This document shows positions 539-19,108 of a stretch of 64,000 bases of DNA, piece after piece. Made by a program: the position numbers and the translations under genes. Origin of the DNA: a virus (Duplodnaviria > Heunggongvirae > Uroviricota > Caudoviricetes); IMG/VR virus record IMGVR_UViG_2855308460_000004; one strand, written 5' to 3'. Below the pieces are notes generated by a model, which saw nothing but the letters and a program-made list of their open reading frames with translations, was not told where the DNA came from and did no database searches. Within the stretch, counting starts at the first letter, position 1, and every line of letters begins with the position of its first letter.

Positions 539-610
539 TCCTTGGTAGCTCAATGGTAGAGCGTCCGGCTGTTAACCGGGATGTTGCAGGTTCGAGTCCT
601 GTCCTTGGAG
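539..610 (+). tRNA. tRNA-Asn (GTT); acceptor stem has two U·U mismatches (pairs 4–69 and 5–68)
   Basis: Cloverleaf read manually: D-stem gctc/gagc, anticodon loop ctGTTaa, T-arm gcagg-ttcgagt-cctgt. Confidence 0.55.
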
Positions 611-615
611 CTTAT

Positions 616-689
616 GGCTTAGTAGCTTAGAGGCTTAAAGCGCTGCCCTGTCACGGCAGAGATCGTGGGTTCGAATCCCATCTAAGTCG
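616..689 (+). tRNA. tRNA-Asp (GTC)
   Basis: Acceptor ggcttag/ctaagtc, anticodon loop ctGTCac, T-loop ttcgaat. Confidence 0.75.
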
Positions 690-710
690 TTTGTTTCAAA
701 TAATTGTTAC

Positions 711-784
711 TGGTTGATAGCTCAGTTGGTTAGAGCAACCGCCTGTTAAGCGGTGGGTCGTGGGTTCAAGTCCCACTCTTCCAG
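711..784 (+). tRNA. tRNA-Asn (GTT), second copy; same U·U mismatches at acceptor positions 4 and 5
   Basis: Anticodon arm accgc-ctGTTaa-gcggt, T-arm gtggg-ttcaagt-cccac. Confidence 0.55.
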
Positions 785-788
785 CTAT

Positions 789-860
789 ATCTCCATAGTT
801 CAATGGAAGAGCATTACGTTGACATCGTAAAGGTTGTTGGTTCGACTCCAACTGGAGATA
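789..860 (+). tRNA. tRNA-Val (GAC)
   Basis: Perfect acceptor atctcca/tggagat, anticodon loop ttGACat. Confidence 0.8.
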
Positions 861-864
861 TTTT

Positions 865-941
865 GGGATGATAGCTTACTTGCGGTCCGCAGCACTGGTC
901 TGAAAAACCAGAGGGTGATGGTTCGACTCCATCTCATCTCA
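865..941 (+). tRNA. tRNA-Phe (GAA) with an enlarged 12-nt D-loop (77 nt)
   Basis: Anticodon arm ctggt-ctGAAaa-accag, T-arm gatgg-ttcgact-ccatc. Confidence 0.55.
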
Positions 942-945
942 TTTT

Positions 946-1018
946 GGCTTATTAGATTAATTGGTTAAATCACATGCCTGTCACGCATGAGACATGGGTT
1001 CGAATCCCATATAGGTCG
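946..1018 (+). tRNA. tRNA-Asp (GTC), second copy
   Basis: Anticodon arm catgc-ctGTCac-gcatg, T-loop ttcgaat. Confidence 0.75.
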
Positions 1019-1024
1019 TTTTAT

Positions 1025-1097
<73 letters not shown>

Positions 1098-1101
1098 CTT
1101 T

Positions 1102-1173
1102 GCTGGATTAGTTCAGTGGTAGAGCACTGGTCTGATATACCAGGAGTCGTTGGTTCAAATCCAACATCCAGCA
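1102..1173 (+). tRNA. tRNA-Ile (GAT)
   Basis: Perfect acceptor gctggat/atccagc, anticodon loop ctGATat. Confidence 0.8.
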
Positions 1174-1177
1174 TTAC

Positions 1178-1249
1178 ATCCGCATAGCTCAATGGATAGA
1201 GCATCGTTCTTCTAAATCGACGACAAGAGTTCGATTCTCTTTGCGGATA
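1178..1249 (+). tRNA. tRNA-Arg (TCT)
   Basis: Perfect acceptor atccgca/tgcggat, anticodon loop ctTCTaa. Confidence 0.75.
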
Positions 1250-1254
1250 TTTTT

Positions 1255-1328
1255 CGGAGTGTGCAGCTAAATGGTAGGCAGCTTCCCTTGGAAGGAAGAA
1301 CGTGTGAGTTCGAATCTCACTGCTCCGA
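1255..1328 (+). tRNA. tRNA-Pro (TGG); D-arm pairing poor
   Basis: Anticodon arm cttcc-ctTGGaa-ggaag, T-arm gtgag-ttcgaat-ctcac. Confidence 0.6.
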
Positions 1329-1330
1329 CT

Positions 1331-1417
1331 AATCCAGTAGTATAATGGAAGTCGATTTAATATATAAGTACGCTGGCTTGTCCGTCAGTAGTGCCGGTTC
1401 GATTCCGGCCTGGATTG
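1331..1417 (+). tRNA. tRNA-like 87-nt element; no canonical anticodon arm could be folded (atypical tRNA or pseudo-tRNA)
   Basis: Perfect acceptor aatccag/ctggatt and canonical T-arm gccgg-ttcgatt-ccggc; the interior is AT-rich with no 5-bp/7-nt anticodon hairpin. Confidence 0.35.
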
Positions 1418-1421
1418 TTTT

Positions 1422-1495
1422 GGGATCATAGCTCTAAATGGGAGAGCATTTGCCTTGCAAGCAAAGGGTTGAGGGTTCAAATCCCTCTGGTTCCA
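1422..1495 (+). tRNA. tRNA-Ala (TGC)
   Basis: Anticodon arm tttgc-ctTGCaa-gcaaa, T-arm gaggg-ttcaaat-ccctc. Confidence 0.8.
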
Positions 1496-1542
1496 TTTGA
1501 TGAAGTGGGAAAAGTATTATAATTCCGATTTCTATCAATTTA

Positions 1543-1615
1543 CGGGATGTAGCCTAGTTGGTAAGGCGCGTGATTTGGGATCACGAAATCGCAGGTTCAA
1601 GTCCTGTCATTCCGA
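1543..1615 (+). tRNA. tRNA-Pro (TGG), second copy
   Basis: D-stem gcct/aggc, anticodon arm cgtga-ttTGGga-tcacg. Confidence 0.75.
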
Positions 1616-1666
1616 TTTAATTCCATATCATTACCATAGTCTCAGTGATATGGATTATATTAATAT

Positions 1667-1738
1667 GCCCGCTTAACTCAATGGGAGAGTGCTTCCCTTA
1701 CAAGGAAGATGTTACAGGTTCAAGTCCTGCAGCGGGTA
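1667..1738 (+). tRNA. tRNA-Val (TAC)
   Basis: Perfect acceptor gcccgct/agcgggt, anticodon loop ctTACaa. Confidence 0.8.
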
Positions 1739-1740
1739 TT

Positions 1741-1841
1741 ACGCTAATGCCTATGGCAGCTAATGAGCTGGGAGTAAACGAACCTCTGTGCAAGTACTGG
1801 CAGTCAGAAGGCTAGGAAAAGATAAGTGAAACCATTAGCGT
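1741..1841 (+). ncRNA. Structured non-tRNA insert in the array, closed by a 9-bp stem (acgctaatg…cattagcgt); unclassified
   Basis: Long-range inverted repeat plus internal hairpins (cagc-taatga-gctg). No T-loop consensus and no ORF. Confidence 0.3.
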
Positions 1842-1972
1842 ACATAAGCTCCGTGTAAAACACACCAAATAAACATAAGTCTATATAGCGCTGTCGACTA
1901 CGAAGTAGGTGTGTACACGTTAAGATGGTAATATGTAGCAATCCGGGTTCTTTTCGGAGCTTTCCCGGTTAT

Positions 1973-2046
1973 AGTGGATTAGCTCAGTTGGTTAGAGCGT
2001 TGGTCTGATAAGCCAAAGGCCACCGGTTCAAGTCTGGTATCCACTA
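1973..2046 (+). tRNA. tRNA-Ile (GAT), second copy
   Basis: Perfect acceptor agtggat/atccact, anticodon arm ttggt-ctGATaa-gccaa. Confidence 0.8.
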
Positions 2047-2048
2047 TT

Positions 2049-2215
2049 CTGGATTATTAATTTAAATTGCCCAAAACAAATTTAACGGCAGTGGTGGGCG
2101 AAGAGAAGTCGGTATCCCTCACTGCCATGAGGCCAACCACGTGTCTACATAGGATGCAGTCGCACTTCTGTAATATACCGAGCGTGGATTGAAACAAGTT
2201 GGTTTATTAATCCAG
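2049..2215 (+). ncRNA. ~167-nt structured element inside the tRNA array; closing stem ctggatta…taatccag, internal hairpin ggcagtg…cactgcc (2087–2126); unclassified
   Basis: Nested inverted repeats read in the sequence; no tRNA cloverleaf and no plausible ORF. Confidence 0.3.
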
Positions 2216-2345
2216 AAAATTAATATGTTCCTATGCGAAATAATAATATGGAGTCATGACCATAGGATTATATTCATCACTTTTTCATGTGCAAAAAGTA
2301 GAGAGCGATTTGCGAGAACTGGTGCAAGGCCAGACACGAACCCAT

Positions 2346-2416
2346 GCAGATGTAGTTTAACGGAAAAACGCTGTTTTGCCATAGCAGAGTTGAGGGTTCG
2401 ATTCCCTTCATTTGCT
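2346..2416 (+). tRNA. tRNA-Gly (GCC)
   Basis: D-stem gttt/aaac, anticodon arm ctgtt-ttGCCat-agcag, T-arm gaggg-ttcgatt-ccctt. Confidence 0.75.
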
Positions 2417-2421
2417 TCAAA

Positions 2422-2442
2422 CATCCGGCTCATAACCGGATC
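2422..2442 (+). pseudogene. Isolated anticodon-arm-like hairpin (tccgg-ctCATaa-ccgga); possible tRNA-Met remnant
   Basis: 5-bp stem with a 7-nt loop carrying CAT; no D- or T-arm nearby. Confidence 0.3.
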
Positions 2443-2459
2443 TAAAATGTTTTTCTTAT

Positions 2460-2533
2460 ATCAGTATAGCTCAGCAGGCAAGAGCACCAGACTCATACCC
2501 TGGAGGCCGCTGGTTCGATTCCAGCTACTGATA
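2460..2533 (+). tRNA. tRNA-Met/Ile2 (CAT)
   Basis: Perfect acceptor atcagta/tactgat, anticodon loop ctCATac. Confidence 0.7.
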
Positions 2534-2534
2534 T

Positions 2535-2606
2535 TACGGTGTAGTTCAACGGATAGAACATAGGTTTCCTAGACCTACAATATGGGTTCGATTCCCATCA
2601 TCGTAA
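2535..2606 (+). tRNA. tRNA-Arg (CCT)
   Basis: Anticodon arm taggt-ttCCTag-accta. Confidence 0.75.
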
Positions 2607-2608
2607 CT

Positions 2609-2682
2609 GTGGCCGTGGCTCAATTGGTACAGCAGCGGATTGTGGCTCCGCCATTTTGCGGGTTCAACTCCCGTCGGTCACC
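2609..2682 (+). tRNA. tRNA-His (GTG)
   Basis: Anticodon arm gcgga-ttGTGgc-tccgc, acceptor gtggccg/cggtcac. Confidence 0.7.
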
Positions 2683-3125: not shown

Positions 3126-4370
3126 ATGCTATTATCAAAAAGAACAACGATCCACGTATCTGAACACCAAGCAAATATTTTGAACCATATGAATTATGCA
3201 GCCAGTAAGTTATGGAATGTATGCAATTATGAGAAACGAAATTATAAGACTTTGGGCATTCCATATCCAAATTGGTACAATCAGAAATCAAGGCTAAAGG
3301 ATAATATCTGGTTTAAGTCGCTTCCATCCCAAACAGCTCAGGAAATCTGCAACCAGATTGATCAGGCTTTTAAAAGCTACTATAAGCTATTAAAAACAGG
3401 TGGAATCAAGTCTCCAAAACCACCTAAATTCAAGCAGGAAGGGATTCCAATTACTTATATGCAGAATGGGATTGTACATAATAAGAAATCTGCACAGATC
3501 CGGCTAAGTATTCCAAAGAATTTAAAGGTACATATGGCAGAACGGTTTGATGTCCATGATAACTATCTATTCCTGGAAAATAAAGTTTTCCAGGACATGG
3601 AAAACATCAAACAGATCAAGCTATATCCACCTGTAAATGGAGAACTACTGATGATTGTTATCTATGAGATTCCAGAGGTTGGCTGGCTTCCAGATAATAG
3701 CCATTATCTGTCCATTGACTTAGGAATCGAGAACCTGATGACCTGCTATGATAGTTTGGGTAACAGTTTTATTGTTGGAAATAGCTACTTGGAAGTTTCG
3801 CATTACTTTAACAAAAAAATTGCACACTATCAGTCCATATCAGACAGTCAGCAAGTGTCAAAAGGAACTAAGTATCCAAAATCTTCCAAACGCGTTCTGA
3901 AGCTCTATAAAAAGAAGCACAACAGTATTAAAGATGTCCTCCACAAATCAACAAAATATATTGTTGATTATTGTTTGGAACATCATATCTATACAGTAAT
4001 TATCGGTGATATAAAACATATCAGGGACAACAATAGTTTGGGTTCTAAAACAAATCAGGTGTTTCATGCCTGGCCATTTCGTGAAATATATTTGATGTTG
4101 GAATATAAATTAAAGCAGCATGGAATTCGCTTAACAAGGATAAAAGAATCCTATTCCAGTCAATGTAGTCCATTATCAAAAGAAGTTAGTAAACGATATG
4201 CAAATAAGTCGAATCGAATAAAAAGAGGCTTATATAAAGAAGCCGGACATATATGGAATACCGATGCGGTAGGCGCTTATAATATCATGAGACTATACTT
4301 TAAACAGATAGGTCGAGGCAAACAGATTTCTCATCAAAACCTAGGAAGTCCGATAAAAGTAACTGTGTAA
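3126..4370 (+). CDS. tnpB: IS605/IS1341-family TnpB-like (OrfB) protein, 414 aa; RuvC-II Glu and zinc finger look degenerate
   Basis: TnpB hallmarks are visible: RuvC-I SIDLGIENL and RuvC-III NTDAVGAYNI. Where the RuvC-II motif (IxEDL) is expected the sequence reads VIIGDIKH. The C-terminal CxxC…CxxC is reduced to a single Cys. Confidence 0.7.
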   Translation: MLLSKRTTIHVSEHQANILNHMNYAASKLWNVCNYEKRNYKTLGIPYPNWYNQKSRLKDNIWFKSLPSQTAQEICNQIDQAFKSYYKLLKTGGIKSPKPPKFKQEGIPITYMQNGIVHNKKSAQIRLSIPKNLKVHMAERFDVHDNYLFLENKVFQDMENIKQIKLYPPVNGELLMIVIYEIPEVGWLPDNSHYLSIDLGIENLMTCYDSLGNSFIVGNSYLEVSHYFNKKIAHYQSISDSQQVSKGTKYPKSSKRVLKLYKKKHNSIKDVLHKSTKYIVDYCLEHHIYTVIIGDIKHIRDNNSLGSKTNQVFHAWPFREIYLMLEYKLKQHGIRLTRIKESYSSQCSPLSKEVSKRYANKSNRIKRGLYKEAGHIWNTDAVGAYNIMRLYFKQIGRGKQISHQNLGSPIKVTV

Positions 4371-4810: not shown

Positions 4811-5521
4811 ATGAGATATAGAGGAAGTAAAATAATGAGATTTCGTGAAGGGATTTGTATTAATTGCAAACATGAATTGCAAATAGATACAAATAAAATA
4901 ACATCAACATGTCCTTTTTGTGGTATGTCCTATGATGTAATAAAAACAATCGACGGAAAGAATCAATTATTAGAAGAAAAAAAATATGATGAGTTAAATG
5001 AACTATGTACAGTCATTTTAAAAGGGATTTTTGCTACAATCATAGCCATAATAATCGGAAGCTACATGGTTATGGCCTTATCTCCTAAACAGGATGATAA
5101 TAGTACAGAAAAGCCAACAAATATTGTTGAGTCAACCATATCTGAAAACATAGCAGGAAAAGTAGATATTGGTGATAAAGAGAAGAAGGAAATGGATGTA
5201 GTTGAACCAATAGATGGTAAGCACATAGAAAAATCCAAGAAGCTAGATACTACGGAATCACAACAGTCTGCTGATGTTTTTGAATCAGGAGAAAAAACTA
5301 CAATCTCAAATATAGCTGATAATGAAATGATGTTATTATTAGGCAGAATTCTCTCAATGTTAAAATTTATTGCATTCTTTAATTTAGGATTTGGATTGAT
5401 TCGGCTTATAATTGGAATCGTAAATGAAGATATAGAAGGTGTATCAGGAGCAAGTCTCTTTTTGATACTAAATGCATTTATGTTGCTATGCGTATCAGTT
5501 ATAACACCATTTATAACATAA
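4811..5521 (+). CDS. Hypothetical membrane protein with an N-terminal zinc-ribbon (CINC…CPFC) and a C-terminal TM region
   Basis: Good RBS, Cys pairs, hydrophobic C-terminus. Confidence 0.5.
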   Translation: MRYRGSKIMRFREGICINCKHELQIDTNKITSTCPFCGMSYDVIKTIDGKNQLLEEKKYDELNELCTVILKGIFATIIAIIIGSYMVMALSPKQDDNSTEKPTNIVESTISENIAGKVDIGDKEKKEMDVVEPIDGKHIEKSKKLDTTESQQSADVFESGEKTTISNIADNEMMLLLGRILSMLKFIAFFNLGFGLIRLIIGIVNEDIEGVSGASLFLILNAFMLLCVSVITPFIT

Positions 5522-5602
5522 AAGAGGCAAATGCCTCTTTTTATTATATATGAAATTGAGTTCAACTATCAGAATTTTCCATACTATGAATAATATCTTA
5601 TA

Positions 5603-16092: not shown

Positions 16093-16458
16093 AGTATCTA
16101 AATAATGGTCATTGAGCATAGATATATCTTATAGAAGAAGTGATTCTTCCATAAGAAAATCGATTGCTGACTACACACCAATAGCCACCATTAAAAAGAT
16201 GCGTTACTTCCTTCATAATAATAAAAAATAACATTATCCAAAGGTGAAATAATAGTACACATGCTTACAGTTAAAAAGAAGAAAGGAGATTAATGAAATG
16301 AGATATCGTTGTCAGTTATTGCAGGTTTGTTTAGAACAATGTACTACTCTTAAAAAACAGGAGTGGTTAGTTTTGAATGCAAAAATTGAATGATGATATC
16401 GAAGTATTATTAATCCATAAAACTATTTATGTATAGATTTCGTGCTATACACAATTAT

Positions 16459-16486
16459 GGGATTACTTCGGTAGTCCCATTTTTAT
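16459..16486 (+). terminator. Terminator/attenuator hairpin immediately upstream of tRNA array 2
   Basis: gggattac-ttcg-gtagtccc + TTTTT. Confidence 0.55.
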
Positions 16487-16488
16487 TT

Positions 16489-16570
16489 GCTCGCATGGCG
16501 GAACAGGAAGACGCATGGGACTTAAAATCCCAGGAAGAAATTCGTGAGGGTTCGATTCCCTCTGTGAGTA
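16489..16570 (+). tRNA. tRNA-Leu (TAA), class II
   Basis: Anticodon arm tggga-ctTAAaa-tccca, long variable arm, T-arm gaggg-ttcgatt-ccctc. Confidence 0.7.
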
Positions 16571-16575
16571 CTGAT

Positions 16576-16647
16576 AGATCGATGGTGTAAATGGCAACAT
16601 GATGGTCTCCAAAACCATTGCTCAGGGTTCGAGTCCCTGTCGGTCTG
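16576..16647 (+). tRNA. tRNA-Trp (CCA)
   Basis: Anticodon arm atggt-ctCCAaa-accat. Confidence 0.8.
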
Positions 16648-16651
16648 TTAT

Positions 16652-16736
16652 ACGGCTATTGCCAAGCGGTAAGGCGGGAGGCTTTGACCCTCTTAAATAT
16701 CAATAGATTTCGCTGGTTCGAATCCAGCTAGCCGTG
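16652..16736 (+). tRNA. Class II-shaped tRNA (Ser-like D-arm, 18-nt variable region) with ambiguous anticodon (loop ctttgac: TTG or shifted TGA)
   Basis: Perfect acceptor acggcta/tagccgt; D-arm gcc-aagcggtaa-ggc; T-arm gctgg-ttcgaat-ccagc. Confidence 0.45.
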
Positions 16737-16763
16737 TTATATAACTACCAAAGTTATAATCCT

Positions 16764-16836
16764 GGCCGCATAGTCGAGTGGTTATGACGGGAGCCTTTCA
16801 AGCTTCAGGTGTCGGGTTCAATTCCCACTGCGGTCA
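16764..16836 (+). tRNA. tRNA-Glu (TTC); T-stem has mismatches
   Basis: Anticodon arm ggagc-ctTTCaa-gcttc; acceptor ggccgca/tgcggtc. Confidence 0.5.
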
Positions 16837-16862
16837 TTATATCAAAATAAGGAGATAAAAAA

Positions 16863-16898
16863 ATGAAACGAAAAACAGAACGTACGAAAACAGAATGA
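16863..16898 (+). CDS. 11-codon mini-ORF (MKRKTERTKTE) with a strong RBS inside the tRNA array
   Basis: aaggagat, 8-nt spacer, then ATG; ends 9 nt before tRNA-Lys. Confidence 0.25.
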   Translation: MKRKTERTKTE

Positions 16899-16906
16899 AA
16901 TTATAC

Positions 16907-16980
16907 GCGCCTGTAGCTCAGTTGGCTAAAGCAACCGGCTTTTAACCGGTAGACCGTGGGTTCGAGTCCCACTAGGCGCA
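16907..16980 (+). tRNA. tRNA-Lys (TTT)
   Basis: Anticodon arm accgg-ctTTTaa-ccggt. Confidence 0.8.
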
Positions 16981-16984
16981 TTTA

Positions 16985-17066
16985 GCACGTATCGCCTAGT
17001 GGTAGGGCACTCGACTTTTAATCGAGAGGCACATGGCCATCCTGGGTTCGAATCCCAGTACGTGCA
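16985..17066 (+). tRNA. tRNA-Lys(TTT)-like with an anomalous 15-nt variable region (82 nt)
   Basis: Perfect acceptor gcacgta/tacgtgc; anticodon arm ctcga-ctTTTaa-tcgag; T-arm ctggg-ttcgaat-cccag. Confidence 0.45.
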
Positions 17067-17071
17067 TTCAT

Positions 17072-17143
17072 GCATCGTAGCCCATGCGGAGTGGGAACAG
17101 TCTGCAAAACTGTCTTTGGTCGGTTCGACTCCGACACGATGCT
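17072..17143 (+). tRNA. tRNA-Cys (GCA)
   Basis: Perfect acceptor; anticodon arm acagt-ctGCAaa-actgt. Confidence 0.8.
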
Positions 17144-17412
17144 TGTGCATATTATCGCTGTGGCAAAAAAAGTACTAAAGATATCGGAAACAGCATAAAA
17201 CGACTCTTTGGTAAATAGCACAGACGCATGGAACTAACAATTGTGAAATGCGGAGCAGACAGGATAGGAAAATTGATATGCTGGTCAAAATTACTACTGT
17301 AAAAAAACATGGTATATGAAACTATATCTGCGTAAAGTGGTGAGGTTCTTTTGGATGCCCGATGAAATAAAAATAATGCTTTCGGCCAACTCCACGTAAT
17401 ATGCCCAATTAA

Positions 17413-17832
17413 TTGGAGGTTGTAATGTATCATTTGATAAAGAAACATCAATACCTTGTAATTAGTATCTTATTTATGGTTGTCTTGAGAGGAATAGAGT
17501 TTGCGTTAGTAAATACAGGACATGAATTTGAAATGGTACTCCTTGATCCTATAGCATTCGCACTGCTGTATGTTTTGCTGGCAATAAAATGTAATATTAC
17601 GGATATAAGCAAGATAACATTTACTTTAATATGTCTCATTATGATGTATATAGTAAGCGAATCAATTTTTTTAGTTCCACATTCTTGGATTACTTATAAG
17701 GATAAGGGTTTTTTTGGAGGCCTTTACACATTAATGTATTCATTAACAATCCTGTATGATTGGATATATGTAATCGTGTGTTATTTAATAACAATTATAG
17801 TTAAATTAGTCATTAATAGACTGCGTCTGTAG
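17413..17832 (+). CDS. Small polytopic membrane protein (139 aa) between the two halves of array 2; its stop lies inside the next tRNA
   Basis: RBS ggaggt; four hydrophobic segments; TAG stop at 17830–17832, inside tRNA-Lys (17823–17895). Confidence 0.5.
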   Translation: MEVVMYHLIKKHQYLVISILFMVVLRGIEFALVNTGHEFEMVLLDPIAFALLYVLLAIKCNITDISKITFTLICLIMMYIVSESIFLVPHSWITYKDKGFFGGLYTLMYSLTILYDWIYVIVCYLITIIVKLVINRLRL

Positions 17833-17895
17833 CTCAGCTGGAAGAGCAGGTGGCTCTTAACCATCAGGTCCAGGGTTCGATGCCCTGCAGGCGCA
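17823..17895 (+). tRNA. tRNA-Lys (CTT)
   Basis: Anticodon arm ggtgg-ctCTTaa-ccatc. Confidence 0.8.
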
Positions 17896-17936
17896 TTTCT
17901 ATCCAATAGGAAAGATTCATGTGAATTATAAATTTA

Positions 17937-18010
17937 GGCGCTATAGTGGAATTGGTTATCACGCCAGACTCTCAATCTGGAGACTGCGAGTTCAAGCCTC
18001 GCTAGCGTCA
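17937..18010 (+). tRNA. tRNA-Glu (CTC)
   Basis: Anticodon arm ccaga-ctCTCaa-tctgg. Confidence 0.8.
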
Positions 18011-18013
18011 TAT

Positions 18014-18093
18014 GTCCATATGGTGGAACGGAATACACGCTCGGCTAAGAACCGGGTCCCAAGAGGATGTGGGTTCAAATCCCACTATGGACA
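18014..18093 (+). tRNA. Class II tRNA with anticodon loop ctAAGaa (Leu AAG; A34 is unusual)
   Basis: Perfect acceptor gtccata/tatggac; 12-nt variable arm; T-arm gtggg-ttcaaat-cccac. Confidence 0.5.
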
Positions 18094-18097
18094 TTAT

Positions 18098-18170
18098 AGC
18101 CCAATAGTTCAACTGGAAGAACATCAGTTTCTGAATCTGAATGTTGCAGGTTCGAATCCTGCTTGGGTTG
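18098..18170 (+). tRNA. tRNA-Gln (CTG)
   Basis: Anticodon loop ttCTGaa. Confidence 0.7.
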
Positions 18171-18193
18171 TCAAACAGAGTTTTTGATAATTT

Positions 18194-18275
18194 GCCCATA
18201 TGGCGTAATGGCAGACGCTGTGGACTTAAAATCCACTGGATTCATTCCGTGCCGGTTCGAGTCCGGCTATGGGTA
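18194..18275 (+). tRNA. tRNA-Leu (TAA), second copy
   Basis: Perfect acceptor gcccata/tatgggt; anticodon arm gtgga-ctTAAaa-tccac. Confidence 0.8.
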
Positions 18276-18283
18276 TTTATTTT

Positions 18284-18355
18284 GGCATCTTCGACAAGTT
18301 GGTAAGTCGCAGGTATTTCAAACCTGAGTCACTGGTTCGAATCCAGTAGATGTCA
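18284..18355 (+). tRNA. tRNA-Glu (TTC)-like (loop atTTCaa, A32)
   Basis: Acceptor ggcatct/agatgtc; T-arm actgg-ttcgaat-ccagt. Confidence 0.5.
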
Positions 18356-18358
18356 TCA

Positions 18359-18429
18359 GCTTTCATAGTTTAAAGGTAGAACAGCTGCCTCGTAAGCAGT
18401 CAATGACAGTTCGATTCTGTCTGGAAGCT
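18359..18429 (+). tRNA. tRNA-Thr (CGT)
   Basis: Anticodon arm gctgc-ctCGTaa-gcagt; T-arm gacag-ttcgatt-ctgtc. Confidence 0.7.
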
Positions 18430-18430
18430 T

Positions 18431-18591
18431 TCCTATAGTCGCTGTGGTACGGACACAGACGCCATCGCAGGTCATAGTGGCGGAGCAAGGACGAGTCGAA
18501 ACGATGACGGTATTAGACAGTCTAAATAGAGCAAAGGCAGATTGCTTGCGTAAAGAGGTGAGTCTTAGCGGACAATTCCTCGCTATAGGAA
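18431..18591 (+). ncRNA. ~160-nt structured element between tRNAs, closed by a 9-bp stem (tcctatagt…gctatagga); unclassified
   Basis: Long-range inverted repeat plus internal hairpins (gcaaaggcagattgcttgc, cgaaacg loop); no ORF. Confidence 0.3.
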
Positions 18592-18676
18592 TACTATATA
18601 TTTTTGACCGTTTGTGGAGCTGACTTTTTGGTATGTGAGGTTAGTGGTGACAATGAGGAGGAGGGCATTGTCATTA

Positions 18677-18757
18677 GCTCGTATGATGGAAAGGAAGACA
18701 TGGCTGACTCAAAATCAGCTGCCGATAGGCGTAAGGGTTCAAATCCCTTTATGAGCA
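18677..18757 (+). tRNA. tRNA-Leu (CAA)
   Basis: Anticodon arm gctga-ctCAAaa-tcagc; class II. Confidence 0.75.
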
Positions 18758-18763
18758 TGCAAT

Positions 18764-18843
18764 GTTCATGTGGCGGAATGGAATACGCGTGCGGCTCAGA
18801 ACCGCATGGTTATACCTTGTGGGTTCGAATCCCACCATGAACA
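18764..18843 (+). tRNA. tRNA-Leu (CAG)
   Basis: Perfect acceptor; anticodon arm tgcgg-ctCAGaa-ccgca. Confidence 0.8.
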
Positions 18844-18846
18844 TCT

Positions 18847-18918
18847 GCCTTTATAGGCTAATGGACAAACTGCCTGACTTCGAATCAGGTGTTATGAGTT
18901 CGAATCTCATTAAAGGCA
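18847..18918 (+). tRNA. tRNA-Arg (TCG)
   Basis: Anticodon arm cctga-ctTCGaa-tcagg. Confidence 0.75.
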
Positions 18919-18922
18919 CTAA

Positions 18923-18994
18923 GTTCCTGTAGGCTAATGGATAAACCATCCGGCTACGAACCGGCAATTGGGAGTTCGAATCTCTTCAGGAACA
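18923..18994 (+). tRNA. tRNA-Arg (ACG)
   Basis: Perfect acceptor gttcctg/caggaac; anticodon loop ctACGaa. Confidence 0.75.
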
Positions 18995-18998
18995 TGAA

Positions 18999-19077
18999 GC
19001 CCGCATGGTGGAATGGAAGACATGCCTGACTTAGGATCAGGTGCGAAAGCGTGAGGGTTCAAATCCCTCTGTGGGTA
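18999..19077 (+). tRNA. tRNA-Leu (TAG)
   Basis: Anticodon arm cctga-ctTAGga-tcagg; variable arm tgcgaaagcgt. Confidence 0.8.
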
Positions 19078-19085
19078 TAAATAAA

Positions 19086-19108
19086 GGAGACAATTGTCTC
19101 CTTTTTTA
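19086..19108 (+). terminator. Intrinsic terminator closing tRNA array 2
   Basis: ggagacaattgtctcc + TTTTTT. Confidence 0.7.

What the first reader, a model, noticed from the sequence alone, without database searches (positions are those of the whole stretch)
18431..18591. ~160-nt stem-closed structured element inside tRNA array 2
It is flanked by tcctatagt…gctatagga (9 bp) and contains a GNRA-like cgaaacg loop and the gcaaaggcagattgcttgc hairpin. It sits between tRNA-Thr and tRNA-Leu(CAA). Its size and architecture match the two array-1 elements, suggesting a recurring, unannotated RNA element.
Basis: seen in the sequence. Interest (0 to 1): 0.5.

Follow-up and report, generated by a model that had tools for sequence, protein, structure and literature searches.

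The report
New structured RNA inside tRNA arrays
The 160-base element is a real, evolutionarily conserved folded RNA gene of an undescribed family that sits like an extra cassette among the tRNA genes of giant low-GC mobile elements of gut bacteria; what it does is still unknown.

Summary
The element exists as described: window 18431-18590, + strand, closed by a 9-bp stem, starting one base after tRNA-Thr(CGT). Folding this one sequence is unconvincing (z = -1.9); the comparative evidence is strong.

It does not resemble the two array-1 spacers. A covariance model finds nothing there. Its true paralogue is a longer copy in the same array (17147-17404).

Homologues turned up in 14 metagenome contigs and one IMG/VR contig. 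Nearly all lie inside tRNA arrays, on the tRNA strand, and most start 0-5 nt after a tRNA.

There are two subtypes, S (~160 nt) and L (214-258 nt). Both share a five-way junction: P1-CG-P2-A-P3-GA-P4-GUAAA-P7. About 98% of pair cells are paired, 15 pairs show compensatory changes, and slid controls give 26-54% paired.

The overlapping ORF is broken by stop codons in 7 of 10 homologues. No Rfam family, tRNA model or T4 RNAC/RNAD matches.

Best reading: a stable non-coding RNA co-transcribed with the tRNAs and released by the tRNA-processing nucleases. Its conserved junction core suggests a binding or catalytic role, but the function is not shown. It is a new RNA family in a known genomic niche, alongside T4 RNAC/RNAD, GOLLD and ROOL.

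The parts
18431..18590 (+). S-subtype copy of the RNA family: the whole element that was flagged (160 nt)
   Evidence: Sequence. Model R1 scores it 209 bits. Covariation.
18431..18439 (+). P1 5' strand (UCCUAUAGU). Pairs with 18582-18590. The inner pair is an invariant U.G.
   Evidence: 7 of 9 pairs show compensatory changes across 14 sequences; the U.G is present in 14/14.
18442..18458 (+). P2 hairpin, CUGUG / loop GUACGGA / CACAG. The stem sequence is invariant in all copies. In the L subtype the loop is replaced by a ~56-nt extension.
18460..18482 (+). P3 hairpin, CGCCA / 13-nt loop UCGCAGGUCAUAG / UGGCG
   Evidence: 3 of 5 pairs show compensatory changes. The loop sequence is conserved within the S subtype.
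18485..18549 (+). P4 domain. GCAA (18485-18488) pairs with UUGC (18546-18549). It encloses P5 (18489-18492 / 18520-18523), P5a (18495-18499 / 18514-18518) and a minimal P6 (18531-18532 / 18537-18538).
   Evidence: P4 and P5 covary between S and L (GCAA/UUGC versus GCAG/CUGC; GGAC/GUCU versus ACAG/CUGU). P5a covaries within S. In S, P6 is weak and RNAalifold prefers an alternative local hairpin.
18550..18554 (+). Junction strand GUAAA between P4 and P7. It is nearly invariant, with GCAAA in one copy.
18555..18581 (+). P7 (GAGG/CCUC), with a conserved internal loop UGA / AAUU and a distal hairpin P7a (GUC-UUAGCG-GAC). The P7 3' strand runs straight into the P1 3' strand with no linker.
   Evidence: P7 and P7a covary.
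18582..18590 (+). P1 3' strand (GCUAUAGGA)
17147..17404 (+). L-subtype paralogue (258 nt). It starts 3 nt after tRNA-Cys. It has the same five-way core, with extensions on P2, P5, P6 and P7a.
   Evidence: Shared motifs. R1, built from S copies only, finds it at E = 1.3e-5. RNAalifold on 9 L copies predicts 63 pairs, 18 of them with compensatory changes.
18358..18430 (+). tRNA-Thr(CGT). Its last base is directly followed by the first base of P1.
18591..18676 (+). Conserved spacer between the element and tRNA-Leu(CAA). It includes the hairpin 18648-18673 (loop AGGAGGAGGG). It is retained in a relative that lacks the element.
16457..16480 (+). Terminator-like hairpin just upstream of array 2
19083..19104 (+). 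Terminator-like hairpin just after the last tRNA of array 2. The only terminator-like hits inside the array are the T-arm of the tRNA at 16651-16737 and a minus-strand site (18964-18950) within the tRNA at 18923-18994, so there is no convincing internal terminator.

Best explanation
Window 18431-18590 (+) is a gene for a structured non-coding RNA. It is the short (S) subtype of a previously uncurated family. A long (L) subtype lies 1 kb upstream in the same tRNA array (17147-17404).

Shown:
- The family folds into a five-way junction. P1 is a 9-11 bp closing stem ending in U.G. Then come CG, P2 (invariant CUGUG/CACAG), A, P3, GA, P4 (which encloses P5, P5a and P6), GUAAA, and P7 (internal loop UGA/AAYU plus hairpin P7a), whose 3' strand continues directly into P1.
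- The junction and its linkers are almost invariant. The peripheral hairpins vary in length and sequence.
- Copies sit in tRNA arrays on the tRNA strand. Most begin 0-5 nt after a tRNA 3' end.

Inferred:
- The RNA is transcribed as part of the polycistronic tRNA precursor.
- It is set free by the same endonucleases that mature its neighbours: a 3'-end cut of the upstream tRNA and RNase P at the downstream tRNA.
- It survives because P1 buries both ends.
- The P1/P7 continuous stack and the 2/1/2/5/0 linker pattern resemble the acceptor/T minihelix and cloverleaf of a class II tRNA. It may therefore be handled by tRNA-binding factors.

More speculative: a conserved core with variable arms suggests the junction is a binding pocket or active site. 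The RNA would then act in trans in the tRNA and translation toolkit of the giant element (tRNA arrays, RtcB, HPF).
For: - Homologues: exact-pattern scans plus model R1 recovered copies in 14 metagenome contigs and 1 IMG/VR contig. 14 of the 15 pattern hits lie in tRNA arrays on the tRNA strand.
- The paralogues are truly related: a model built from S copies alone finds every L copy at E between 1e-5 and 7e-19.
- Covariation, core alignment: 98.7% of cells paired, 15 of 34 pairs with double changes, score 0.447 against 0.03-0.13 for slid controls.
- Covariation, plain MAFFT alignment of S copies: 98.0% paired, 15 of 40 pairs with double changes.
- RNAalifold rebuilds the same helices de novo for L (63 pairs, 18 compensatory) and for most of S.
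- Strand: invariant U.G and G.U pairs would be A.C mismatches on the other strand.
- Not coding: the overlapping ORF has stop codons in 7 of 10 homologues.
- Module boundary: conservation across L075, L046 and L038 stops at the end of P1.
- Adjacency to tRNAs.
- Array 2 is bracketed by terminator-like hairpins. The only terminator-like hits inside it fall within tRNA genes.
[quoted passage not shown] GOLLD and ROOL are 'often located nearby to tRNAs' (PMC5737381).
Against: - There is no expression or processing data.
- Single-sequence folding is not significant (z = -1.9 and -1.46).
- The sequence set is small: 14 distinct cores, many closely related. It was retrieved with patterns that fix some motifs, so part of the apparent conservation is by construction.
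- The core alignment A5 was cut by my own structure-guided regex.
- P2 never varies, so it is not tested by covariation. P4 and P6 in the S subtype are ambiguous.
- The S copy is missing from the same slot in L004, and from L032, so it is dispensable.
- Some copies are not next to a tRNA: L075 is about 120 nt away and L046 about 490 nt.
- tRNA models do not match, and there is no T-loop consensus.
Confidence: 0.6

Rival explanations
1. It is a tRNA mimic or decoy: a degenerate descendant of a class II tRNA gene. It would be bound by, and would titrate or redirect, a tRNA-recognising factor such as a host anticodon nuclease, a modification enzyme or a processing enzyme, to the benefit of the mobile element. 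This is a specific version of the best explanation.
For: - Five helices in the tRNA order, with linkers of 2/1/2/5/0 nt, and a P7 3' strand contiguous with P1, as the T stem is with the acceptor stem.
- It lives and is gained or lost like a tRNA cassette in arrays.
- The element also carries RtcB, an RNA ligase, 4 kb downstream.
- T4 rnaC, in the same kind of position, has a true T-arm.
Against: - ARAGORN and the Rfam tRNA model do not match, even at E <= 10.
- There is no UUCRA T-loop, no 7-nt anticodon-like loop in most copies, and no CCA.
- Stem lengths are 9-11/5/5/4 rather than 7/3-4/5/5.
- The loops that would form the 'elbow' are not conserved between S and L.
Confidence: 0.2
2. It is a catalytic or cis-acting processing module, for example a self-cleaving ribozyme or a structure that directs cleavage or insulates neighbouring tRNAs. 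Its job would be maturation of the array transcript rather than a trans function.
For: It has a highly conserved multi-helix junction with variable peripheral arms, and its ends coincide with tRNA boundaries. In the window and in L035 the S copy sits at what may be the end of a transcription unit.
Against: - No match to any self-cleaving ribozyme family in Rfam at E <= 10.
- Most tRNA junctions in the same arrays do without it.
- Relatives lacking the S copy keep the same flanking tRNAs.
Confidence: 0.1
3. It is a reduced, element-encoded version of a universal RNA such as RNase P RNA, SRP RNA or tmRNA, fitting the element's own SecY/SecE, tRNAs and HPF.
For: From memory of the E. coli M1 RNA sequence, not a tool result: GGAGCAAGGaC...cUAAAUAGaG and GUAAA..ACUCCAC resemble the stretch GGUAAACUCCACCCGGAGCAAGGCCAAAUAGGGG. 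The element does encode SecY and SecE.
Against: - No Rfam hit to RNase P, SRP or tmRNA models at E <= 10, and ARAGORN finds no tmRNA.
- The topology has no nested P2/P4 pseudoknot and no CR-I or CR-V.
- The motif order is permuted relative to M1.
- There are two divergent copies per array.
Confidence: 0.03
4. It is a miniature inverted-repeat transposable element, or an insertion remnant, with no RNA-level function. Its 9-bp ends would be terminal inverted repeats.
For: It has perfect 8-bp inverted ends. It shows presence/absence polymorphism at the same slot between the window and L004. IS605-type elements are nearby.
Against: - The terminal repeat sequence itself changes while pairing is kept (7 of 9 P1 pairs are compensatory), and so do internal helices.
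- There are only two copies in 64 kb. Both are in tRNA arrays and both are on the tRNA strand.
- No target-site duplication is visible.
Confidence: 0.03
5. It encodes a small protein, the 59-aa ORF at 18444-18623.
For: The ORF is present in the window.
Against: The ORF is interrupted by stop codons in 7 of 10 homologues, including near-identical ones. It has no Pfam hit. The substitutions are compensatory for base pairing.
Confidence: 0.01

Closest known systems
Bacteriophage T4 small stable RNAs RNAC (species 1, 139 nt) and RNAD (species 2, 119 nt)
   Same: They are non-tRNA RNAs of 120-140 nt encoded inside a mobile element's tRNA cluster, on the tRNA strand. They abut a tRNA by 1 and 6 nt. 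Their function is unknown (PMC3014915).
   Different: There is no sequence or structure similarity: R1 scores at most 7.2 bits across the T4 cluster. T4 rnaC carries a canonical T-arm, GGGUUCGAAUCCC, which this family lacks. This family has a five-way junction and comes in two subtypes.
GOLLD (RF02032) and ROOL large ornate RNAs
   Same: They are structured non-coding RNAs of unknown function, often next to tRNA genes in prophage-like DNA (PMC5737381). One S copy (L075 3563-3729) shares a tRNA-rich non-coding stretch with a GOLLD RNA (5016-5531, 155 bits).
   Different: GOLLD and ROOL are 400-800 nt. There is no covariance-model similarity. This RNA is 160-260 nt with a single five-way junction.
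Class II tRNA (tRNA-Leu/Ser/Tyr type cloverleaf)
   Same: Five helices in the same order. Similar short linkers. The closing stem is contiguous with the last hairpin stem. It occupies an array position and orientation like a tRNA gene.
   Different: It is not detected by ARAGORN or RF00005. It has different stem lengths, no T-loop or D-loop consensus, no anticodon loop, and is twice to three times the size.
Bacterial Y RNA (YrlA-type tRNA-like RNAs bound by Rsr)
   Same: Both are stem-closed RNAs of about 100-160 nt with a tRNA-like module. YrlA is genetically linked to RtcB in some bacteria (from established knowledge, not tested here).
   Different: There is no Rfam Y RNA hit at E <= 10. No TROVE/Rsr gene appears among the called genes within about 10 kb. 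There is no T-loop.

Membership tests
tRNA (RF00005) | Detected by tRNA covariance model or ARAGORN; 7-bp acceptor stem, T-loop UUCRA, 7-nt anticodon loop | tested here: not met
   ARAGORN calls none in 18431-18676. RF00005 gives no hit at E <= 10 in 18350-18700 apart from the flanking tRNA-Thr. No UUCRA motif is present in the sequence.
tRNA (RF00005) | Cloverleaf junction geometry: helix order and linker lengths, with the T stem contiguous with the acceptor stem | tested here: inconclusive
   Linkers are 2/1/2/5/0 nt and P7 is contiguous with P1. This resembles a class II tRNA but is not a statistical test.
T4 RNAC/RNAD (species 1 and 2 RNAs) | Non-tRNA stable RNA encoded inside a phage tRNA cluster, immediately adjacent to a tRNA | tested here: met
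   e3 starts 0 nt after tRNA-Thr. T4 rnaD and rnaC start 1 and 6 nt after their neighbour. That the RNA is stable has not been tested.
T4 RNAC/RNAD (species 1 and 2 RNAs) | Sequence and structure homology to T4 rnaC or rnaD | tested here: not met
   R1 with filters off on T4 69000-74000 gives a best score of 7.2 bits, which is noise.
GOLLD / ROOL | Match to RF02032 (GOLLD) or to the ROOL model; size 400-800 nt | tested here: not met
   No hit at gathering threshold or at E <= 10. The element is 160 nt.
GOLLD / ROOL | Located near tRNA genes in phage-like or mobile DNA | tested here: met
   with PMC5737381.
Bacterial RNase P RNA | Match to RF00010/RF00011; P4 pseudoknot with CR-I and CR-V | tested here: not met
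   No Rfam hit at E <= 10. The consensus structure has no long-range pseudoknot. Catalysis is not testable with these tools.
Small self-cleaving ribozymes (hammerhead, twister, twister-sister, pistol, hatchet, HDV-like, glmS) | Match to the family covariance model | tested here: not met
   No hit at E <= 10 for either subtype.
Small self-cleaving ribozymes (hammerhead, twister, twister-sister, pistol, hatchet, HDV-like, glmS) | Self-cleavage activity | not testable with these tools
   Requires an in vitro transcription and cleavage assay.
MITE / IS remnant | Terminal inverted repeats, target-site duplication, and many dispersed copies in either orientation | tested here: not met
   Inverted ends are present, but their sequence covaries. 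No duplication is visible. There are only 2 copies in the window, both in arrays and both on the + strand.
tmRNA | tRNA-like domain plus tag reading frame, detected by ARAGORN or Rfam | tested here: not met
Y RNA / YrlA | Rfam Y RNA model match; adjacent rsr (TROVE) gene | tested here: not met
   No hit at E <= 10. No TROVE family appears among the genes called from window ~9197 to 30147.

The most novel reading that the evidence does not exclude
These would be a new class of tRNA-shaped, five-way-junction RNAs that move as cassettes within the tRNA arrays of half-megabase gut mobile elements. Their near-invariant junction would be an active site or a specific binding pocket. For example, the RNA could be a decoy or inhibitor of host tRNA-targeting defence nucleases, or a ribozyme or cofactor acting on tRNAs. 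The S and L subtypes would carry different specificity arms.
Probability: 0.2. Interest if true: 0.8.

Novelty: new member of a known kind. Interest (0 to 1): 0.62.

Why it matters
tRNA clusters of phages and giant mobile elements have long been known to hide non-tRNA RNAs whose roles remain unsolved: T4 RNAC and RNAD for about 50 years, and GOLLD and ROOL since 2010-2017.

This family adds a compact example of 160-260 nt with strong covariation. It has a clear conserved core and two natural size variants. It also occurs in a cultured, sequenced human gut isolate (Enterocloster aldenensis, GCA_003467385.1), which makes Northern blots, deletion and pull-down experiments feasible.

If the tRNA-like junction is recognised by tRNA enzymes or by anti-tRNA defence nucleases, the RNA would connect such passenger RNAs to the conflict over tRNAs between mobile elements and their hosts. 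In any case it is a candidate new Rfam family, and it improves the annotation of 'gaps' in tRNA arrays.

Tried and rejected
- Rfam at gathering threshold on the whole window, and at E <= 10 on e3, E4 and the array-1 spacers: only tRNAs and noise.
- BLAST of the element against the phage and plasmid collections: no match.
- Exact 22-mer from e3 in IMG/VR: nothing.
- The 16-mer TGCGTAAAGNGGTGAG in IMG/VR: 20 hits, all chance.
- Combined pattern in GTDB genome contigs: one chance hit in a Thermoflexia MAG. The source genome is not a species representative.
- L-specific 24-mer in IMG/VR: nothing.
- Neighbouring-protein route. Relatives of the 235-aa ORF showed that most related elements have no array at this site. 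Only L004 was informative.
- Array 1 in relatives could not be fetched. The TelA start codon did not match a called gene, and the 173-aa ORF returned only the source contig.
- The SecY hit to an Agathobacter 'plasmid' is a chromosomal ribosomal-protein operon, not a relative.
- Search for antisense targets of e3 or E4 loops in the window: only chance-level 9-10-mers.
- Kissing-loop ideas (L3 CGC with L7a GCG): rejected because L075 and L037 break the pairing without compensation.
- K-turn and T-loop readings of the UGA/AAYU internal loop: the sequence does not fit either consensus. This was judged by eye, not tested.
- Literature searches for a prior description of this RNA or of the giant Enterocloster element found nothing specific.

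Full report

The sequence is as described. tcctatagt (18431-18439) pairs with gctatagga (18582-18590) over 8 Watson-Crick pairs plus a terminal U.G. The element fills the first 160 nt of the 246-nt gap between tRNA-Thr(CGT) (18358-18430) and tRNA-Leu(CAA) (18677-18757). Its first base follows the last base of tRNA-Thr directly.

The MFE structure is a stem-closed multi-branch fold. It is only marginally better than shuffled sequence: z = -1.9, with 6 of 200 shuffles as good, and z = -1.7 on the opposite strand. On this sequence alone the finding would be weak. Rfam 15 gives nothing there, even at E <= 10.

**2.

The two array-1 spacers (1740-1971 and 2048-2345) have no sequence or structural similarity to the element.
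- A covariance model of the family (R1) gives at most 7.7 bits of hairpin noise across array 1 with filters off. The T4 tRNA region gives noise at the same level.
- E1 folds no better than shuffles (z = +0.43). E2 gives z = -1.42.
- Neither has homologues in the loci I could fetch.

A sensitive local BLAST, followed by direct reading, showed a paralogue in array 2 itself: 17147-17404, starting 3 nt after tRNA-Cys. It shares these motifs: UCGCUGUGG, CACAGACGC, GCGGAGCA, UGCGUAAAGnGGUGAG and AAYUCCnCG. Its closing stem has a different sequence but the same pairing (GCAUAUUAU/GUAAUAUGC against UCCUAUAGU/GCUAUAGGA).

**3. Homologues elsewhere.**

The window comes from NCBI assembly GCA_003467385.1, contig QSGP01000005.1 (472 kb). 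Its proteins are labelled Enterocloster aldenensis.

A related contig, L004 (neighbouring protein 78% identical), keeps the same array and the long copy. At the e3 slot it has a 45-nt stretch with a small hairpin instead. The 86-nt spacer downstream of e3 is conserved there. So e3 is an accessory cassette, not a fixed part of the array.

One metagenome scan with the pattern GGAGCA-N50-80-TGCGTAAAGNGGTGAG returned 15 contigs.
- Fourteen carry the match inside a tRNA array, on the same strand as the tRNAs.
- Five of them carry two copies.
- The fifteenth hit (L039), like the single hit from the GTDB genome scan (L031), is chance.

R1 was built from eight short copies only. It then found every long copy (E between 1e-5 and 7e-19) and one short copy that the pattern had missed (L035 12960-13126). 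A looser pattern plus R1 found one copy in IMG/VR: L075 3563-3729, on a 146.5-kb contig.

There are two subtypes.
- S is 159-160 nt: e3, L034, L035, L036, L037, L040, L041, L044/45, L046, L075, and a partial copy in L038.
- L is 214-258 nt: window 17147-17404, L004, L032/33/43, L035, L037, L040, L041, L044/45, and a partial copy in L042.

**4. Structure.**

Both subtypes share a five-way junction. In order it reads:
- P1, 9-11 bp, whose innermost pair is an invariant U.G;
- linker CG;
- P2, CUGUG/CACAG, invariant;
- linker A;
- P3, 5 bp;
- linker GA;
- P4, GCAR/YUGC, which encloses P5, P5a and P6;
- linker GUAAA;
- P7, GNGG/CCNC, followed by the internal loop UGA/AAYU and the hairpin P7a.

The P7 3' strand runs straight into the P1 3' strand.

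Three alignments support this.
- Core alignment A5 (85 columns, 14 distinct sequences, variable loops cut out): 98.7% of pair cells are standard pairs and 15 of 34 pairs have changes on both sides. The covariation score is 0.447. Sliding the partner by 1-3 columns gives 26-54% paired and scores of 0.03-0.13. None of 500 shuffles reaches the observed pairing.
- Plain MAFFT alignment of ten natural S sequences (A6): 98.0% paired, 15 of 40 pairs compensatory, score 0.341 against at most 0.083 for slid controls.
- RNAalifold run de novo on nine natural L sequences (A7): P1, P2 with its 12-bp extension, P3, P4, P5, P5a/b, P6, P7 and P7a are all recovered. That is 63 pairs, 18 with compensatory changes.

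On the S set RNAalifold reproduces P1, P2, P3, P5, P5a, P7 and P7a. It prefers a local 4-bp hairpin to P4/P6, and that hairpin has no double changes. P4 in S therefore rests on homology with L and on the A-U to G-C switch between subtypes.

P2 never varies, so covariation does not test it.

**5. What it is not.**

- Not a protein gene. The 59-aa ORF over e3 is cut by stop codons in 7 of 10 homologues, including near-identical ones, and has no Pfam hit.
- Not a MITE. The 'inverted repeat' changes sequence while keeping pairing. Internal helices do the same. Copies occur only in tRNA arrays, in the tRNA orientation, and no target duplication is visible.
- The transcribed strand is the + (tRNA) strand. 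The invariant U.G and G.U pairs would be A.C mismatches on the other strand.
- Not a tRNA, tmRNA, RNase P RNA, SRP RNA, Y RNA, GOLLD, ROOL or any Rfam ribozyme by covariance model.
- Short stretches recall E. coli RNase P RNA (GGAGCAAGGcCAAAUAGG and GUAAACUCCAC). That comparison is from my memory of the M1 sequence. The order is permuted, the topology lacks the P4 pseudoknot, and no model supports it. I treat it as coincidence.

**6. Context.**

The window is 33% GC, whereas Enterocloster genomes are about 50% GC (PMC12056005).

It encodes SecY, TelA, a LytR-family protein, ClpP, HPF, RtcB, a TnpB, and 37-38 tRNAs in two arrays; a SecE homologue is called in related contigs. Syntenic relatives occur in many gut metagenome assemblies, on contigs up to 562 kb, and in a Hungatella hathewayi contig. 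I found no phage structural hits in ten large ORFs and no match in the phage or plasmid collections. The host element is therefore a giant low-GC extrachromosomal element, or a huge phage, of uncertain type.

Array 2 is bracketed by terminator-like hairpins at 16457-16480 and 19083-19104. The only terminator-like hits inside the array fall within tRNA genes: the T-arm of the tRNA at 16651-16737, and a minus-strand site within the tRNA at 18923-18994. There is thus no convincing internal terminator.

Most copies begin 0-5 nt after a tRNA 3' end. Several end 4-5 nt before the next tRNA (L004, L034, L037). Two copies stand further from a tRNA (L075, L046). In three contigs of another lineage, conservation stops exactly at the outer end of P1, which marks the element as a discrete module.

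In L075 the same tRNA-rich non-coding stretch holds a GOLLD RNA (155 bits). In L035 an IscB-type HEARO RNA follows the S copy.

**7. How it most likely works.**

- Shown: it is a conserved, strand-specific, non-coding folded RNA gene embedded in tRNA arrays.
- Inferred, with moderate confidence: it is co-transcribed with the tRNAs. It is released when the neighbouring tRNAs are cut out, by 3'-end processing of the upstream tRNA and by RNase P at the downstream tRNA. P1 protects both ends. This matches the layout of T4 rnaD and rnaC, which abut tRNA-Arg by 1 and 6 nt and are stable RNAs of unknown role (PMC3014915).
- Inferred, with lower confidence: the P1/P7 continuous stack and the 2/1/2/5/0 linker pattern mimic the acceptor/T minihelix and the five-helix cloverleaf of class II tRNAs. 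tRNA-binding enzymes may therefore recognise it.
- Speculative: a near-invariant junction with freely varying arms is the pattern expected of a binding pocket or active site rather than a mere spacer. The function may relate to the element's tRNA and RNA-repair toolkit (tRNA arrays, RtcB, HPF).

**8. Novelty and caveats.**

I found no Rfam family and no paper describing this RNA. It is a new family within a known kind: non-tRNA structured RNAs carried in the tRNA clusters of phages and mobile elements.

Caveats:
- The sequence set is small and partly redundant.
- Retrieval patterns fix some motifs, so part of the conservation is by construction.
- A5 was segmented using the structure it then tests.
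- The shuffle control ignores phylogeny. The slid controls and the de novo RNAalifold runs mitigate this.
- No expression data exist.
- The distribution beyond the scanned collections is unknown.

Noticed in passing
window 17147-17404: A 258-nt long-subtype paralogue of the flagged element lies between tRNA-Cys and an ORF/tRNA-Lys(CTT).
   Followed up: yes
window 1740-1971 and 2048-2345: These are two non-tRNA spacers in array 1, each starting right after a tRNA. They are unrelated to the e3 family. E1 folds no better than shuffles (z = +0.43) and E2 gives z = -1.42. What they are remains open.
   Followed up: partly
window 18591-18676 (hairpin 18648-18673): This 86-nt spacer is 87-99% conserved in relatives, including L004, which lacks e3. 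It contains an 8-bp hairpin with loop AGGAGGAGGG that ends 3 nt before tRNA-Leu(CAA). It may be a processing site or internal promoter region. The scan found no consensus promoter.
   Followed up: partly
window 17413-17832: A 139-aa hydrophobic ORF with a GGAGG ribosome-binding site sits inside array 2, directly after the long RNA copy. It is present only in the window, L002 and L032 lineages. It is absent in L004, L037, L040 and L044, where tRNA-Lys follows the RNA by 4 nt. It has no Pfam hit.
   Followed up: partly
window 3126-4370; L035 5111-5337 and 13200-13458: A TnpB (OrfB_IS605 / Cas12f-like) gene lies just downstream of array 1. In relative L035, two HEARO (IscB-associated) RNAs are present, and one of them directly follows the S copy at the end of the array. 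IS200/605-type elements seem to target the edges of these arrays.
   Followed up: partly
L075 5016-5531 (IMGVR_UViG_3300031555_005060): A GOLLD RNA (RF02032, 155 bits, just above the 150-bit threshold) lies 1.3 kb from an S copy, in a 10-kb stretch with 13 tRNAs and few ORFs. Further conserved non-coding blocks flank the S copy in L075 and L046, for example AUCGUGAGGAUAGACGAAGCAUCGAGUCGGG.
   Followed up: partly
whole window: The window is 33% GC, inside an Enterocloster aldenensis assembly (genus about 50% GC). It carries its own SecY, ClpP, HPF, TelA, a LytR-family protein, RtcB, flotillin, an OpuA-type transporter, ParA-like and RecD2 genes; a SecE homologue is called in related contigs. 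Syntenic relatives reach 562 kb. It looks like a giant extrachromosomal element or huge phage that is absent from the phage, plasmid and IMG/VR collections.
   Followed up: partly
window 539-2682 and 16489-19077: The 37 ARAGORN tRNAs, plus one Rfam-only tRNA (865-941), include no tRNA-Ser or tRNA-Tyr. ARAGORN's 89-nt 'tRNA-Ile(tat)' at 1330-1418, tRNA-Pro at 1255-1329 and tRNA-Cys at 17072-17143 are not in the Rfam list. None of the tRNAs checked encodes CCA.
   Followed up: no
L035 11624-11703: ARAGORN calls a 'tRNA-Stop' with anticodon UUA (a possible UAA suppressor) in the array of a related element.
   Followed up: no
L005-L007 16759-19011: In one lineage of related elements RtcB is 750 aa instead of about 400 aa. 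This may be an intein or a fusion.
   Followed up: no
L110 (NZ_CP143948.1, PLSDB): A 252-kb Agathobacter rectalis record labelled 'plasmid' carries the main ribosomal-protein operon, secY, rpoA and infA. It looks like chromosomal sequence.
   Followed up: no
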